DNA from: Escherichia coli
GTDB lineage: Bacteria; Pseudomonadota; Gammaproteobacteria; Enterobacterales; Enterobacteriaceae
Reading direction: 5' to 3' (one strand)
Length of the DNA: 64,000 nucleotides
NCBI RefSeq assembly: GCF_965641715.1
Contig: NZ_OZ282453.1
Both the position numbers and the translations under genes were made by a program. Shown piece after piece: positions 20,576 through 26,014 of this stretch (position 1 is the first letter of the stretch; every line of letters starts with the position of its first letter). Below the pieces are notes generated by a model. That model had not been told where the DNA came from. It made no database searches and saw only the letters and a list, made by a program, of their open reading frames with translations.

Positions 20576-21811
20576 ATGTCTAAATTACCAACAGGTGTCG
20601 AGATTAGAGGTAGATACATTCGCATCTGGTTCATGTTTCGAGGAAAACGATGTCGGGAAACATTAAAAGGCTGGGAGATTACAAACAGTAATATTAAAAA
20701 GGCCGGAAATTTAAGAGCGCTGATAGTTCATGAAATAAACTCCGGTGAATTTGAGTATTTAAGACGTTTTCCCCAGTCCAGCACTGGGGCAAAAATGGTG
20801 ACAACGAGAGTCATAAAAACGTTCGGGGAGCTTTGTGATATCTGGACAAAAATTAAAGAGACAGAGTTAACAACAAACACAATGAAGAAAACGAAATCAC
20901 AATTAAAAACACTCAGAATAATAATTTGTGAAAGTACCCCGATATCACATATTCGTTATAGCGATATCTTAAACTACCGGAATGAACTGCTGCATGGAGA
21001 AACGCTTTACCTGGATAATCCAAGATCCAACAAAAAAGGAAGAACCGTGCGCACAGTTGATAACTATATCGCCCTGCTCTGTTCGCTGTTACGTTTTGCG
21101 TATCAGTCGGGATTTATATCAACCAAACCATTTGAAGGAGTAAAAAAATTACAGCGAAACAGAATAAAGCCTGATCCGTTATCTAAAACAGAATTCAATG
21201 CATTAATGGAAAGTGAAAAAGGACAGAGCCAAAACTTGTGGAAATTTGCCGTTTACTCAGGACTTCGTCACGGGGAACTGGCAGCTCTGGCGTGGGAGGA
21301 TGTGGATCTCGAAAAGGGAATAGTGAATGTCAGAAGAAACCTGACGATACTTGATATGTTCGGTCCCCCAAAAACAAATGCCGGGATCCGGACAGTAACA
21401 CTACTGCAGCCTGCTCTTGAAGCACTGAAGGAGCAATACAAACTGACCGGACATCATCGCAAAAGCGAAATCACCTTTTATCATAGGGAGTACGGCAGAA
21501 CCGAAAAGCAAAAACTGCATTTTGTTTTCATGCCCAGGATGTGTAACGGAAAACAGAAACCTTATTACTCGGTAAGCAGTTTGGGGGCAAGGTGGAATGC
21601 AACAGTAAAACGTGCTGGTATTCGCCGCCGTAATCCGTACCATACGCGGCATACTTTTGCCTGCTGGCTGTTGACGGCAGGAGCGAACCCGGCATTTATA
21701 GCCAGCCAGATGGGGCATGAAACTGCGCAGATGGTGTATGAAATTTACGGTATGTGGATTGATGACATGAACGACGAACAGGTAGCCATGTTGAATGCGC
21801 GGTTATCGTAG
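20576..21811 (+). CDS. intR: tyrosine integrase (IntR-like)
   Basis: 411 aa; C-terminal catalytic region with HTRHTFACWLLTAGANPAFIASQMGHE; adjacent to ttcA start. Confidence 0.9.
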   Translation: MSKLPTGVEIRGRYIRIWFMFRGKRCRETLKGWEITNSNIKKAGNLRALIVHEINSGEFEYLRRFPQSSTGAKMVTTRVIKTFGELCDIWTKIKETELTTNTMKKTKSQLKTLRIIICESTPISHIRYSDILNYRNELLHGETLYLDNPRSNKKGRTVRTVDNYIALLCSLLRFAYQSGFISTKPFEGVKKLQRNRIKPDPLSKTEFNALMESEKGQSQNLWKFAVYSGLRHGELAALAWEDVDLEKGIVNVRRNLTILDMFGPPKTNAGIRTVTLLQPALEALKEQYKLTGHHRKSEITFYHREYGRTEKQKLHFVFMPRMCNGKQKPYYSVSSLGARWNATVKRAGIRRRNPYHTRHTFACWLLTAGANPAFIASQMGHETAQMVYEIYGMWIDDMNDEQVAMLNARLS

Positions 21812-22926: not shown

Positions 22927-24300
22927 TTATTTTAATAACCGCACCCGGCACGTTTTTCCTTTAATCTTCCCGCCCTGTAACTGTTTCCATGCTTTATGAG
23001 CAACAGCCTGACGGACCGCGACATAGACATGCGCCGGATGCACGGCGATTTTGCCAATATCTGCGCCATCAAGCCCGATATCTCCTGTCAGTGCACCTAA
23101 TACATCACCCGGGCGCATTTTGGCTTTTTTCCCGCCATCGATACACAACGTTGCCATTTCTGCTTCCAGCGTCACAATGGAACTATTAGCTGGCGGCGTT
23201 TGCCAGTTAAGTTTTATCTGCAACATGTCAGAAATGATATTGGCCCGCTGTGCTTCTTCCGGAGCACAGAAACTGATCGCCAGACCGCTATTTCCTGCAC
23301 GAGCTGTACGACCGATGCGATGTACATGAACTTCAGGGTCCCACGCCAGCTCAAAGTTCACCACCAGCTCAAGCGATTTAATATCCAGACCACGCGCAGC
23401 AACATCAGTCGCGACCAGTACACGGGCGCTACCGTTAGCAAAACGTACCAGGGTCTGATCGCGATCGCGTTGCTCCAGATCGCCGTGTAATGACAATGCA
23501 CTTTGCCCTACTTCATTCAGCGCGTCGCAGACAGCCTGGCAATCTTTTTTGGTATTGCAAAACACCACGCAAGAGGATGGCTGATGCAAGCTTAATAACC
23601 GTTGCAACAGAGGAATTTTGCCTTTGCTGGATGTCTCATAAAATTGTTGTTCAATGGGTGGCAAAGCATCTGTTGAGTCAATTTCAATCGCCAAAGGATC
23701 GCGTTGCACTCGTCCGCTGATTGCAGCGATGGCTTCCGGCCAGGTTGCCGAAAACAGAAGCGTCTGTCGAGATGCAGGCGCAAAACGGATGACATCATCA
23801 ATGGCATCGCTAAATCCCATATCCAGCATGCGGTCGGCCTCATCCATCACCAAAGTATTCAGCGCATCCAGTGATACCGTGCCTTTTTGCAAGTGATCCA
23901 GCAAACGACCCGGCGTTGCCACGATAATATGCGGCGCATGTTGCAACGAATCACGCTGCATACCGAACGGTTGACCACCGCACAACGTCAAAATTTTGGT
24001 ATTTGGCAGAAAACGCGCCAGCCGACGCAATTCACCTGCCACCTGATCCGCCAGTTCACGCGTAGGACACAGCACTAAAGCCTGGGTTTGAAATAGCGAC
24101 GCATCAATTTGCTGTAACAAGCCGAGGCCAAAAGCCGCCGTTTTGCCGCTGCCGGTTTTCGCCTGCACGCGAACATCTTTTCCGGCAAGGATCGCCGGAA
24201 GCGCGGCGGCCTGCACCGGCGTCATGGTTAAATAACCCAACTCATTAAGGTTCGTGAGTTGGGCGGGAGGCAAAACATTCAGGGTAGAAAAAGCGGTCAC
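22927..24300 (-). CDS. dbpA: ATP-dependent RNA helicase DbpA (DEAD-box)
   Basis: 457 aa; GSGKT Walker A, DEAD box (VMDEADRML), C-terminal RNA-binding domain. Confidence 0.9.
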   Translation of the reverse strand: MTAFSTLNVLPPAQLTNLNELGYLTMTPVQAAALPAILAGKDVRVQAKTGSGKTAAFGLGLLQQIDASLFQTQALVLCPTRELADQVAGELRRLARFLPNTKILTLCGGQPFGMQRDSLQHAPHIIVATPGRLLDHLQKGTVSLDALNTLVMDEADRMLDMGFSDAIDDVIRFAPASRQTLLFSATWPEAIAAISGRVQRDPLAIEIDSTDALPPIEQQFYETSSKGKIPLLQRLLSLHQPSSCVVFCNTKKDCQAVCDALNEVGQSALSLHGDLEQRDRDQTLVRFANGSARVLVATDVAARGLDIKSLELVVNFELAWDPEVHVHRIGRTARAGNSGLAISFCAPEEAQRANIISDMLQIKLNWQTPPANSSIVTLEAEMATLCIDGGKKAKMRPGDVLGALTGDIGLDGADIGKIAVHPAHVYVAVRQAVAHKAWKQLQGGKIKGKTCRVRLLK

Positions 24301-24329
24301 AATCTATTCTCGTGGTCATCGACGCAAAG

Positions 24330-24503
24330 TTAGCAGGCGCGTATCCTCGCAGATCTACGCTCACGATGCGACAATTTAATCGGTTCTTCATCGGGTGGTG
24401 GGTCAGGCATGGGTTGCGGGCGAGGGATCGGATCGGGCACTGGAACAGGATCGCCAGGAATCGGTTCAGGGACAGGAATTTGCAAATAAATAAGTGTCGT
24501 CAT
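24330..24503 (-). CDS. small proline-rich protein (57 aa), hypothetical
   Basis: Manual translation MTTLIYLQIPVPEPIPGDPVPVPDPIPRPQPMPDPPPDEEPIKLSHRERRSARIRAC; strong GGAGGG RBS 4 nt upstream; below ORF-track cutoff. Confidence 0.45.
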   Translation of the reverse strand: MTTLIYLQIPVPEPIPGDPVPVPDPIPRPQPMPDPPPDEEPIKLSHRERRSARIRAC

Positions 24504-24559
24504 ATTTCCCTCCGGTCATTGGGTGGACTCTTAAAGGGTAGACGCTGATAAATAACAGG

Positions 24560-24590
24560 CAAAAAAAAGCCGACTCATCAAAGTCGGCGT
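24560..24590 (-). terminator. intrinsic terminator downstream of zntB
   Basis: Minus strand GCCGACTTTGATGAGTCGGC followed by TTTTTTTT. Confidence 0.5.
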
Positions 24591-24777
24591 CGTACGAATC
24601 AATTGTGCTATGCAGTAATTCAAAAAAGGAAGTAAGACAATATGGAGCGCAACGCCCATCGCTTGACGTTGCATTCACCTGCAAGAGAGATATTGCCCTG
24701 AATGGGTAGAGAGTTTATTGACTTCGCTCAAACTTTGCGGCGTTTTTGTATACAGACAGCCGGAAAAATTGCTTTTG

Positions 24778-25782
<1,005 letters not shown>

Positions 25783-26014
25783 TTATTTTGTAGTCTAGCC
25801 TTCTGGCCCTGTTACGCAACATCTCATCACCCCATTACCCTGAAATGATTAATAAAATTCTGTCTAAATTGAATACAAAAAGCAAAATGCTTTTCCGTAT
25901 ACAAACCGTGTGAAGTGTTAAATAGCGTCTATCATTATCAGAATTATCTGATCATATGACGTGCTTTTTTGCGATCGGATAGCAACAAAAATTGATAAAA
26001 ATAACGGGATCTCA

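What the first reader, a model, noticed from the sequence alone, without database searches (positions are those of the whole stretch)
24330..24503. Unannotated proline-rich 57-aa ORF with a strong Shine-Dalgarno between dbpA and zntB
A GGAGGG RBS lies 4 nt upstream of an ATG opening MTTLIYLQIPVPEPIPGDPVPVPDPIPRPQPMPDPPPDEEPIKLSHRERRSARIRAC. It is below the ORF-track cutoff. Repeated Pro-containing di- and tripeptides could cause EF-P-dependent ribosome stalling, which would suit a regulatory peptide.
Basis: seen in the sequence. Interest (0 to 1): 0.4.

Follow-up and report, generated by a model that had tools for sequence, protein, structure and literature searches.

The report
Known small protein gene ynaL
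The 57-codon proline-rich reading frame is real and translated, but it is the already annotated E. coli gene ynaL (formerly the "C0343 RNA"), a conserved small protein of unknown function whose last codons double as the promoter of the neighbouring helicase gene dbpA.

Summary
The ORF is exactly where stated, on the minus strand at 24330..24503, with GGAGGG 4 nt before the ATG. It is not unannotated. It is ynaL (b4743), RefSeq "proline-rich small protein YnaL", Pfam PF23677, present in 5392 of 5426 complete E. coli genomes. It was first called the ncRNA C0343. RNAcode (2011) reclassified it as coding. Ribosome profiling showed occupancy, and a chromosomal SPA tag detected the protein (2018).

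New here:
- The family spans Enterobacteriaceae and Erwiniaceae and always sits just after the sRNA gene fnrS.
- The Pro-rich core is under peptide-level purifying selection: pN/pS 0.17 with saturated synonymous sites.
- A conserved promoter (TTGCCT-16-TACCCT) matches a published TSS at 24528.
- In Erwinia, Mixta, Phytobacter and Scandinavium, ynaL ends in its own terminator, with no dbpA directly behind it.
- The nucleotide-invariant 3' end of E. coli-type ynaL is the dbpA promoter (published TSS at 24334, two bases before the ynaL stop).

The DPPPD motif occurs in 150 of 164 family members, so synthesis probably depends on EF-P. The idea that ynaL is a stalling leader peptide for dbpA is poorly supported. 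The finding is already known and of low interest.

The parts
24330..24503 (-). ynaL coding sequence (57 codons plus TAA stop)
   Evidence: ORF listing. Its translation is identical to the ynaL ORF in the MG1655 locus (L001), annotated there as b4743. Pfam PF23677 YnaL scores 136.9 bits against a cut-off of 27.
24508..24513 (-). Shine-Dalgarno GGAGGG, 4 nt before the ATG
   Evidence: Sequence. GGAGG is conserved before the start in most genera, seen as the 'xEGxM' reading of the upstream frame and in the upstream alignment.
24535..24562 (-). ynaL promoter: -35 TTGCCT (24562..24557, overlapping the end of the FnrS terminator T-run), 16-nt spacer, -10 TACCCT (24540..24535)
   Evidence: It is the best promoter-like match at the same place in 22 of 27 loci, from Escherichia to Erwinia, 29-34 nt before the ATG in most of them. 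The scan tool calls it in Erwinia as TTGCCA-17-TATGCT. Mendoza-Vargas 2009 report the -10 box 'TCTACCCTTT' for a TSS at dbpA -228.
24528..24528 (-). Published transcription start of the ynaL mRNA (G, 25-nt 5' UTR)
   Evidence: PMC2760140, supplementary file 3: 'dbpA -228', 454 sequencing, a single entry. 24300 + 228 = 24528, six bases after the -10 hexamer.
24381..24476 (-). Proline-rich core, codons 10-41 (alternating P-x; acidic)
   Evidence: Codons 18-40 have pS 0.66, pN 0.11 and pN/pS 0.17. All four Pro codons are used at most Pro positions. AlphaFold2 predicts no secondary structure, with pLDDT about 91 for residues 21-40, which fits an extended chain.
24390..24404 (-). D34-P35-P36-P37-D38 polyproline motif (GAC CCA CCA CCC GAT)
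   Evidence: Sequence. PPP is present in 150 of 164 family sequences. PPP/PPD pause contexts are described in PMC4140641.
24365..24383 (-). Invariant block 1, CCGATTAAATTGTCGCATC. It corresponds to positions -49..-31 of the dbpA promoter (A/T-rich stretch plus -35-like GTCGCA at 24372..24367) and encodes YnaL P41-H46.
   Evidence: It is invariant in 19 species apart from one T/A and one A/G position. Synonymous divergence is 0.017 against 0.66 nearby. It lies within the -50..+1 promoter string of the dbpA TSS.
24336..24355 (-). Invariant block 2, GATCTGCGAGGATACGCGCC. It corresponds to positions -21..-2 of the dbpA promoter: TG at 24351-24350, -10-like GAGGAT at 24348..24343, and a GC-rich discriminator. 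It encodes YnaL R50-A56.
   Evidence: It remains conserved where it is non-coding (Kosakonia L044 and L041, where the ynaL stop lies between the blocks).
24334..24334 (-). Published dbpA transcription start (G, 34-nt 5' UTR), inside ynaL codon 57
   Evidence: PMC3415461, supplementary file 2: TSS 1407501 (NC_000913.2), 126 reads, from 5'-triphosphate-enriched RNA. The coordinate conversion uses the positions of ynaL and dbpA.
22927..24300 (-). dbpA (DEAD-box helicase) with an invariant GTG start. The weak SD-like CGAGA is at 24308..24312, and the ynaL stop lies 29 nt upstream.
24561..24682 (-). fnrS sRNA gene with its terminator (stem 24588..24569, T-run 24568..24561), always immediately upstream of ynaL
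   Evidence: Rfam RF01796, terminator scan, MG1655 annotation.

Best explanation
This is ynaL, a real, translated and conserved small-protein gene. It is not primarily a leader peptide.

**Shown**
- ynaL has a conserved promoter directly after the FnrS terminator, with a published start at 24528.
- It has a strong SD/ATG.
- Its roughly 30-residue acidic core of alternating Pro-x residues is kept by selection on the amino-acid sequence.
- In Erwiniaceae and several Enterobacteriaceae it is a self-contained unit: promoter, ORF, terminator.
- In the Escherichia-to-Klebsiella group the reading frame runs on into the dbpA promoter. The last 17 codons are therefore frozen at the nucleotide level by promoter function, not by the peptide.

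**Inferred**
- The selected product is the free peptide. It is probably an extended polyproline-II rod that acts in trans as a binding ligand or spacer for a partner not yet known.
- Its synthesis needs EF-P to pass D-P-P-P-D efficiently.
- Transcripts from the ynaL promoter can read on into dbpA, because no terminator separates the two genes in E. coli. dbpA nevertheless has its own promoter.
For: **Identity**
-.

**Translation and protein**
- SPA-tag immunoblot and tetracycline ribosome profiling (PMC6001520).
- RIBOseq coverage value (RCV) 2.49 in EHEC, and the RNAcode reclassification of C0343 (PMC5331693).

**Peptide-level selection**
- pN/pS is 0.17 at pS 0.66 for codons 18-40. dbpA gives 0.089 at pS 0.645.
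- Indels seen in natural variants of the core are in frame.

**Independent gene**
- The conserved -35/-10 sits at a nearly constant distance from the ATG in 22 of 27 loci. A published TSS lies at dbpA -228, with the -10 box TCTACCCTTT.
- In Erwinia sp. the scan finds promoter, ORF, intrinsic terminator, then a separate ttcA promoter.
- Phytobacter, Mixta and Scandinavium have ynaL followed by a hairpin and a convergent ttcA, with no dbpA.
- fnrS is upstream in all loci.

**Promoter overlap**
- The dbpA TSS has 126 reads, and its -50..+1 string equals blocks 1 and 2.
- pS in the blocks is 0.017.
- Block 2 is kept when non-coding.
- The blocks are absent where dbpA does not follow directly.

**No fold**
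- AlphaFold2 gives no secondary structure and pTM 0.23. There is no PDB relative.
Against: - No function, partner or phenotype is known. No paper found in the held library reports one.
- 'Acts in trans' is inferred only from peptide-level selection and from the stand-alone gene organisation.
- The published ynaL TSS is a single 454 read. The M9-glucose TSS data set shows no start between fnrS and the dbpA TSS.
- The dbpA promoter hexamers are poor: GTCGCA, an 18-nt spacer, then TGcGAGGAT. The whole 19- and 20-nt blocks are invariant, which is more than a core promoter needs. An unidentified regulator site or other function may therefore overlap.
- The N-terminal 15 residues and the C-terminus are not conserved across the family.
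Confidence: 0.7

Rival explanations
1. ynaL is a cis-acting regulatory upstream ORF. Ribosomes stall at the polyproline stretch when EF-P (or prolyl-tRNA) is limiting, and this changes transcription or translation of the downstream dbpA.
For: - D-P-P-P-D is kept in 150 of 164 family members. Erwinia, Mixta and Phytobacter versions carry a second DPPPH two codons before the stop.
- PPP and PPD are EF-P-dependent pause contexts.
- In the Escherichia-type loci the ynaL stop is 14-29 nt before an invariant GTG start with a weak SD.
- There is no terminator between ynaL and dbpA in E. coli.
- The Pro-rich segment is C-rich and G-poor (40-45% C, about 19% G), the kind of RNA that Rho prefers.
Against: - dbpA has its own 5'-triphosphate TSS at the last ynaL codon, with 126 reads.
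- ynaL is retained with its own terminator where dbpA is absent or two genes away.
- In Kosakonia the stop-to-start distance is over 60 nt.
- PPP is lost in E. albertii and the C. youngae group.
- Non-Pro residues are conserved.
- No conserved alternative structure was found: z = -0.16, and consensus pair probabilities stay below 0.5.
- The full-length tagged protein accumulates in wild type.
Confidence: 0.1
2. This is a dual-role model. YnaL is a protein, and in addition transcription and translation of ynaL across the embedded dbpA promoter modulates dbpA. The mechanism would be promoter occlusion, or supply of read-through ynaL-dbpA mRNA on which terminating ribosomes re-initiate at the GTG.
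For: - The tandem promoters are about 194 nt apart with no terminator between them in E. coli.
- The stop codon lies 29 nt before the dbpA GTG.
- The dbpA start region is less structured than shuffles, with mean z = +0.9.
- VanOrsdel et al. also suggest an operon.
Against: - There is no direct evidence for a ynaL-dbpA transcript.
- The geometry is not conserved. Kosakonia has a gap over 60 nt, and in K. michiganensis and K. grimontii ynaL overlaps the dbpA start.
- The dbpA TSS signal is strong on its own.
Confidence: 0.25
3. In this model ynaL encodes a ribosome arrest peptide of the SecM/TnaC/SpeFL kind. The last ~40 residues, sitting in the exit tunnel, would stall the ribosome near the stop codon.
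For: Within Enterobacteriaceae the last ~40 residues are conserved while the first ~15 are free. That length is roughly the capacity of the exit tunnel (established knowledge).
Against: - The invariant C-terminal part is explained by the dbpA promoter, and it stays invariant when untranslated.
- The C-terminus has three unrelated forms across the family.
- A C-terminal tag is translated.
- There is no downstream gene in several genera.
Confidence: 0.04
4. In this model the locus is a non-coding RNA (the old C0343 call), and the ORF is fortuitous.
For: It was historically listed as the sRNA C0343. By composition alone, an ORF of this size arises in 8% of shuffles.
Against: - The substitution pattern is that of a coding sequence.
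- Ribosome footprints and a tagged protein have been observed.
- Rfam gives no match even at E = 10.
- The family was removed from Rfam according to PMC5331693.
Confidence: 0.01

Closest known systems
YnaL family (E. coli b4743; Pfam PF23677; RefSeq 'proline-rich small protein YnaL'; formerly ncRNA C0343)
   Same: It is this gene. The protein sequence is identical to that encoded by MG1655 ynaL, the position is the same (between fnrS and dbpA), and the HMM match covers the full length.
   Different: Nothing differs. The analysis here adds the family's spread into Erwiniaceae, its three C-terminal forms, its own promoter, and the overlap with the dbpA promoter.
Proline-codon leader peptides MgtL and MgtP of the Salmonella mgtA and mgtCBR leaders
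   Same: These are short ORFs with proline codons upstream of another gene. Translation of MgtL has been linked to EF-P/EfpL (PMC11611912).
   Different: - YnaL is longer and its whole core sequence is under selection.
- It exists without a downstream gene.
- No alternative hairpins were found.
- The downstream gene has its own promoter.
EF-P-dependent polyproline proteins such as CadC
   Same: YnaL contains a PPP motif in a strong context (PPP followed by D), so its yield should depend on EF-P.
   Different: - CadC is a membrane-bound regulator in which PPP sets the copy number.
- YnaL is a 57-aa peptide with no other domain.
- EF-P dependence was not tested here.
Ribosome arrest peptides SecM, TnaC and SpeFL
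   Same: These are small ORFs next to another gene, with conservation concentrated toward the C-terminal part in Enterobacteriaceae.
   Different: C-terminal conservation in YnaL is a DNA-level (promoter) effect. It is absent in Erwiniaceae homologues, and there is no evidence of arrest.
TonB proline-rich (Glu-Pro/Lys-Pro) spacer, and other X-Pro repeat rods
   Same: YnaL has alternating X-Pro dipeptides, predicted as an extended chain without secondary structure. There are weak compositional hits to TonB models.
   Different: The scores are far below the cut-offs (20.8 against 315 bits, and 11 against 33). YnaL has no TonB C-terminal domain and no membrane anchor.
Proline-rich antimicrobial peptides (oncocin, Bac7, apidaecin)
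   Same: They are Pro-rich with a PRP element. This comparison is from my own knowledge and was not tested.
   Different: Those peptides are strongly cationic. The YnaL core is acidic, with 7 acidic and 1 basic residue in residues 1-42.

Membership tests
YnaL family (PF23677 / b4743) | Full-length match to the family HMM above the gathering score | tested here: met
   136.9 bits against a cut-off of 27, residues 1-57 of 57.
YnaL family (PF23677 / b4743) | Same sequence and position as the reference gene | tested here: met
   The translation is identical to the ynaL ORF read from the MG1655 locus. The reference gene is annotated at 1409308..1409481, between fnrS and dbpA. It is annotated as ynaL in the RefSeq rows shown.
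YnaL family (PF23677 / b4743) | Translated in vivo | not testable with these tools
   Taken from the literature: SPA-tag immunoblot and tetracycline ribosome profiling, and RIBOseq in EHEC.
Cis-acting leader peptide / attenuator (MgtL, MgtP, HisL type) | The leader ORF lies on the transcript of the regulated gene | tested here: not met
   The main published dbpA TSS (126 reads) is at 24334, inside the last ynaL codon. Read-through from 24528 is possible but has not been shown.
Cis-acting leader peptide / attenuator (MgtL, MgtP, HisL type) | Alternative terminator/antiterminator or RBS-sequestering structures | tested here: not met
   There is no terminator between ynaL and dbpA in the window. 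The fold gives z = -0.16. The consensus structure is weak. The junction is less structured than shuffles.
Cis-acting leader peptide / attenuator (MgtL, MgtP, HisL type) | Obligatory linkage to the regulated gene | tested here: not met
   In Phytobacter, Mixta and Scandinavium, ynaL is followed by a hairpin and a convergent ttcA. In Erwinia the order is ynaL, terminator, ttcA, dbpA.
Cis-acting leader peptide / attenuator (MgtL, MgtP, HisL type) | Only the regulatory codons are conserved | tested here: not met
   D, I, R, Q and M between the prolines are also near-invariant. pN/pS is 0.17.
EF-P-dependent polyproline proteins | PPP or a strong PPX motif | tested here: met
   D34-P-P-P-D38, present in 150 of 164 family members.
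EF-P-dependent polyproline proteins | Pause or reduced yield in a delta-efp strain | not testable with these tools
   The supplementary table of PMC11611912 was cut when stored and contained no ynaL entry.
Ribosome arrest peptides (SecM/TnaC/SpeFL) | Conserved arrest motif at the C-terminal end of the peptide | tested here: not met
   There are three unrelated C-terminal forms across the family. The conserved Escherichia-type tail is promoter DNA.
Non-coding RNA C0343 | RNA family match and a non-coding substitution pattern | tested here: not met
   There is no Rfam match at gathering score or at E = 10. Third-position variation is 29 of 39 codons, against 12 and 14 for positions 1 and 2.
TonB polyproline region (PF16031 / NF008084) | Score above the curated cut-off | tested here: not met
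   11 against 33 bits, and 20.8 against 315 bits. The resemblance is compositional only.

The most novel reading that the evidence does not exclude
YnaL synthesis depends on EF-P and is driven from a promoter fused to the FnrS terminator. In this reading it feeds back on the ribosome-assembly helicase DbpA by one of two routes. Either transcription and translation run across the dbpA promoter embedded in its last 17 codons, or the acidic polyproline rod binds DbpA or 50S precursors. Either route would link translation-elongation status to large-subunit assembly.
Probability: 0.1. Interest if true: 0.5.

Novelty: already known. Interest (0 to 1): 0.15.

Why it matters
The finding as stated adds nothing. 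The gene has been recognised as coding since 2011, was validated in 2018, and is named in RefSeq and Pfam. What remains open is the function of a strongly conserved, fold-less, acidic polyproline peptide that is present in essentially every E. coli.

The comparative picture built here narrows the options:
- The conserved unit is fnrS plus ynaL, not ynaL plus dbpA.
- The peptide core, not the tail, is what selection preserves.
- The striking nucleotide invariance of the 3' end is the dbpA promoter.

This gives practical guidance. Any ynaL knockout or C-terminal tag in E. coli disturbs the dbpA promoter, so phenotypes must be checked with start-codon mutants. Erwinia or Mixta, where the gene is monocistronic, are cleaner systems for study.

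Tried and rejected
1. **rRNA mimic for DbpA autoregulation.** Local alignment of the invariant element against 23S rRNA scored 17, against 18.6 +/- 2.1 for shuffles. Block 2 resembles 16S positions ~700-719 with p about 0.035, uncorrected over 12 tests, which is not significant.
2. **Conserved RNA structure in the ynaL 3' end and junction.** The minimum free energy gave z = -0.16. The RNAalifold covariation term was -0.45 kcal/mol, with 2 compensatory pairs. Mean pair probabilities stayed below 0.5. The junction was less structured than shuffles. There was no Rfam hit at E = 10.
3. **Rare-codon cluster (AGA, AGG, ATA) as a pausing device.** This was rejected because the same nucleotides stay invariant in Kosakonia and L041, where they are not translated.
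4. **FnrS pairing with the ynaL or dbpA start regions or with the blocks.** Duplex energies fell within the shuffle distribution, with fractions 0.28, 0.72 and 0.42.
5. **A repeated regulatory motif.** The 54-nt element occurs once per E. coli genome.
6. **By-eye comparison to other binding sites and promoters.** I compared the blocks with sigma-E, sigma-32, sigma-54 and sigma-28 promoters, and with CsrA, ArcA, FNR, H-NS and marbox sites. None was convincing, and none was tested computationally.
7. **Overlapping second ORF as the cause of the invariance.** The +1-frame ATG at 24391 is absent in genera with GAC-GAA at that position. The antisense 78-aa ORF (24312..24548, + strand) would not be conserved, because ynaL third-position changes alter its residues.
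8. **Literature on function or EF-P dependence.** No paper found in the held library gives a YnaL function. Several supplements were not held or were truncated. Some papers were not held at all.

Full report
**The observation**

The ORF exists exactly as described, on the minus strand at 24330..24503. It has an ATG start and encodes 57 aa, MTTLIYLQIPVPEPIPGDPVPVPDPIPRPQPMPDPPPDEEPIKLSHRERRSARIRAC. GGAGGG lies at 24513..24508, four bases (AAAT) before the ATG. Downstream is dbpA (22927..24300, GTG start) and upstream is zntB (24778..25761). The ORF therefore lies between fnrS and dbpA. An ATG-ORF of this length appears in 8% of shuffles of the 264-nt spacer, and one with an SD core in 0.4%.

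**Identity**

The ORF is not unannotated.
- The 551-nt region matches 5392 of 5426 complete E. coli genomes, and every listed row carries the feature "ynaL: proline-rich small protein YnaL" or "protein YnaL".
- In MG1655 it is ynaL, b4743, at 1409308..1409481, between fnrS and dbpA. The translation is identical.
- It matches Pfam PF23677 "YnaL" over its full length, at 136.9 bits against a cut-off of 27.
- VanOrsdel et al. 2018 detected the chromosomally SPA-tagged protein by immunoblot. They noted that it was also positive in tetracycline-inhibited ribosome profiling, and they pointed out its adjacency to dbpA (PMC6001520).
- Neuhaus et al. 2017 state that the former "ncRNA C0343" contains this 57-aa ORF and has a RIBOseq coverage value (RCV) of 2.49 in EHEC. 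They add that Washietl et al. 2011 (RNAcode) had shown it to be coding and that it was removed from Rfam (PMC5331693).
- I found no paper in the held library that assigns a function.

**Distribution and what is conserved**

A protein search gave 164 relatives, all short and all carrying PF23677. They come from Escherichia, Salmonella, Citrobacter, Enterobacter, Klebsiella, Raoultella, Leclercia, Lelliottia, Kosakonia and related genera. A scan of one genome per species returned 35 loci. A profile search of 1.84 billion cluster representatives found only 35 hits. These were short YnaL variants plus a few long proline-repeat proteins. The more distant members come from Erwinia, Mixta, Phytobacter, Scandinavium and Kosakonia cowanii.

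Alignment shows a variable N-terminus of about 15 residues and a nearly invariant core, DPVPxPDPIPRPQPMPDPPPDEEPIK. The codons divide into three regions:
- **Codons 18-40.** Third positions use all four Pro codons while the amino acids stay fixed. pS is 0.66, pN is 0.11 and pN/pS is 0.17. dbpA in the same genomes gives 0.089. This is selection on the peptide.
- **Codons 47-49.** These are neutral, with pN/pS 0.93.
- **Codons 41-46 and 50-56.** These are frozen even at synonymous sites, with pS 0.017.

AlphaFold2 gives no secondary structure and pTM 0.23, but pLDDT is about 91 for residues 21-40, which fits an extended chain. There is no PDB relative. The protein has 16 prolines. Residues 1-42 are acidic (7 acidic, 1 basic) and residues 43-57 are basic.

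**The frozen 3' end is the dbpA promoter**

The invariance consists of two blocks separated by exactly 9 free bases:
- block 1, CCGATTAAA(T/A)TGTCGCATC, at 24383..24365
- block 2, GATCTGCGAGGATACGCGCC, at 24355..24336

I first tested and rejected the following explanations:
- RNA structure
- an Rfam family
- an rRNA mimic for DbpA
- FnrS pairing
- a repeated motif

Two comparative facts then pointed to a DNA-level element tied to dbpA. In Kosakonia cowanii and one other locus (L041), ynaL stops between the blocks, yet block 2 and the spacing stay conserved as non-coding sequence. The blocks are absent wherever dbpA does not follow directly.

The published 5'-triphosphate TSS map of MG1655 settles the matter. 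A TSS with 126 reads lies at 1407501 (old coordinates), 34 nt before dbpA. Its listed -50..+1 string is ACCGATTAAATTGTCGCATCGTGAGCGTAGATCTGCGAGGATACGCGCCTG (PMC3415461). That start is G24334, inside ynaL codon 57. Block 1 is therefore -49..-31, the free 9 nt are the spacer, and block 2 is -21..-2.

My reading of the promoter, by inference, is:
- -35 GTCGCA
- an 18-nt spacer
- extended -10 TGcGAGGAT
- a GC-rich discriminator

The few natural variants fall at tolerant positions. One is the n of TGn in Kosakonia, and another is hexamer position 3 in K. michiganensis. The conserved "RSARIRAC" tail is therefore probably a by-product of promoter conservation. Why the whole blocks are invariant, and not only the hexamers, is still open.

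**ynaL is an independent gene**

Between the FnrS terminator and the ynaL start, the best promoter-like match falls at the same place in 22 of 27 loci, from Escherichia to Erwinia. It reads TTGCC(T/A), 16-17 nt, TA(C/T)NCT, and in most of these loci it lies 29-34 nt before the ATG, with a freely varying spacer. In the window the -35 is at 24562..24557 and the -10 at 24540..24535. Mendoza-Vargas et al. 2009 list a TSS at "dbpA -228" with the -10 box TCTACCCTTT (PMC2760140). This is G24528, six bases after that hexamer. It is a single 454 entry, and the M9 data set shows no start there, so expression from this promoter may be weak or condition-dependent.

In Erwinia sp. the scan tool finds, in order, the FnrS terminator, this promoter, the ORF, an intrinsic terminator, and then a separate promoter for ttcA. 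In Phytobacter, Mixta and Scandinavium, ynaL is followed by a hairpin and a convergent ttcA, with no dbpA. fnrS is upstream in every case. The conserved unit is thus fnrS plus ynaL, not ynaL plus dbpA.

**The EF-P / regulatory-peptide idea**

D-P-P-P-D is present in 150 of 164 family sequences. Erwiniaceae versions carry a second DPPPH just before the stop. Elgamal et al. found PPD only among pausing motifs. They also found that all PPP reporters dropped at least 4-fold without EF-P, while the levels of most PPP-containing proteins are unaffected by loss of EF-P (PMC4140641). EF-P-assisted synthesis of YnaL is therefore a fair inference.

A role as a stalling leader for dbpA is poorly supported, for these reasons:
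- dbpA has its own promoter.
- ynaL survives without dbpA.
- Non-proline residues are conserved.
- PPP is PSP in E. albertii and the C. youngae group.
- No attenuator structure exists.
- The C-terminally tagged protein accumulates.

Read-through from 24528 into dbpA remains possible in E. coli, since no terminator intervenes. A secondary coupling or promoter-occlusion effect therefore cannot be excluded.

**Verdict**

The best explanation is a stand-alone, translated small protein whose acidic polyproline core is the selected product. Its function is unknown. In E. coli its 3' end overlaps the dbpA promoter. Novelty: already known. Interest is low.

Noticed in passing
window 24336..24383 (- strand): Two nucleotide-invariant blocks sit inside the ynaL 3' end, with pS 0.017 against 0.66 nearby. 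They coincide with positions -49..-2 of a published dbpA TSS. The hexamers are poor (GTCGCA, 18 nt, TGcGAGGAT) and the whole blocks are frozen, so an extra regulator site or stringent-type control (GC-rich discriminator) may be present.
   Followed up: yes
window 24301 (- strand): Mendoza-Vargas 2009 also list a single-read 5' end at 'dbpA -1' with a predicted -35 box CGCCTGCTA. It could be a minor or leaderless start, or noise.
   Followed up: no
window 25775..25822 (- strand): A 15-codon [18 protein letters not shown], lies just upstream of zntB. It corresponds to the annotated MG1655 gene ynaN, b4773.
   Followed up: partly
L009 (E. coli E69) 2501..2641; protein P0053 (Salmonella enterica): Natural in-frame length variants occur in the Pro-rich core. 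E. coli E69 has an 11-codon deletion, and one Salmonella cluster has a 10-residue duplication (PDPRPHPQPM twice). Rare frameshifted E. coli alleles also exist (P0007, P0041, P0106, P0110, P0137).
   Followed up: partly
L030, L031 (Klebsiella michiganensis, K. grimontii): Here the ynaL frame has no stop at the usual place and runs on to 84-85 codons, overlapping the dbpA start by about 50-65 nt.
   Followed up: no
L033 2556..2568 (K. pneumoniae) and the equivalent position in Citrobacter, Silvania, Kosakonia: A short hairpin of varying sequence sits around the ynaL stop codon (GCAGA/TCTGC, GCTTAT/ATAAGC, CATCT/AGATG and others). In some genera it is followed by CCTTTT. It is called terminator-like in K. 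pneumoniae, is weak, and has no U-run in E. coli.
   Followed up: partly
H1, NZ_CP041425.1 (E. coli STEC388): An IS1A element interrupts the zntB-ynaL-dbpA region in this strain. The query matched in two pieces spanning 1328 bp.
   Followed up: no
window 20576..21811 (+): A phage-type integrase (Arm-DNA-bind_2 plus Phage_integrase domains) lies next to ttcA, so a prophage boundary sits about 2.5 kb from the finding.
   Followed up: no
window 24712..24731: An FNR-box-like sequence, TTGAG-N4-GTCAA, lies upstream of fnrS. It is listed as a predicted FNR site (AGTTTATTGACTTCGCTCAA) in Mendoza-Vargas 2009.
   Followed up: no
window 24312..24548 (+): A 78-aa antisense ORF mirrors ynaL. It stays open because the antisense of CCN codons is NGG. 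It is not conserved as a protein, since ynaL third-position changes alter it.
   Followed up: partly
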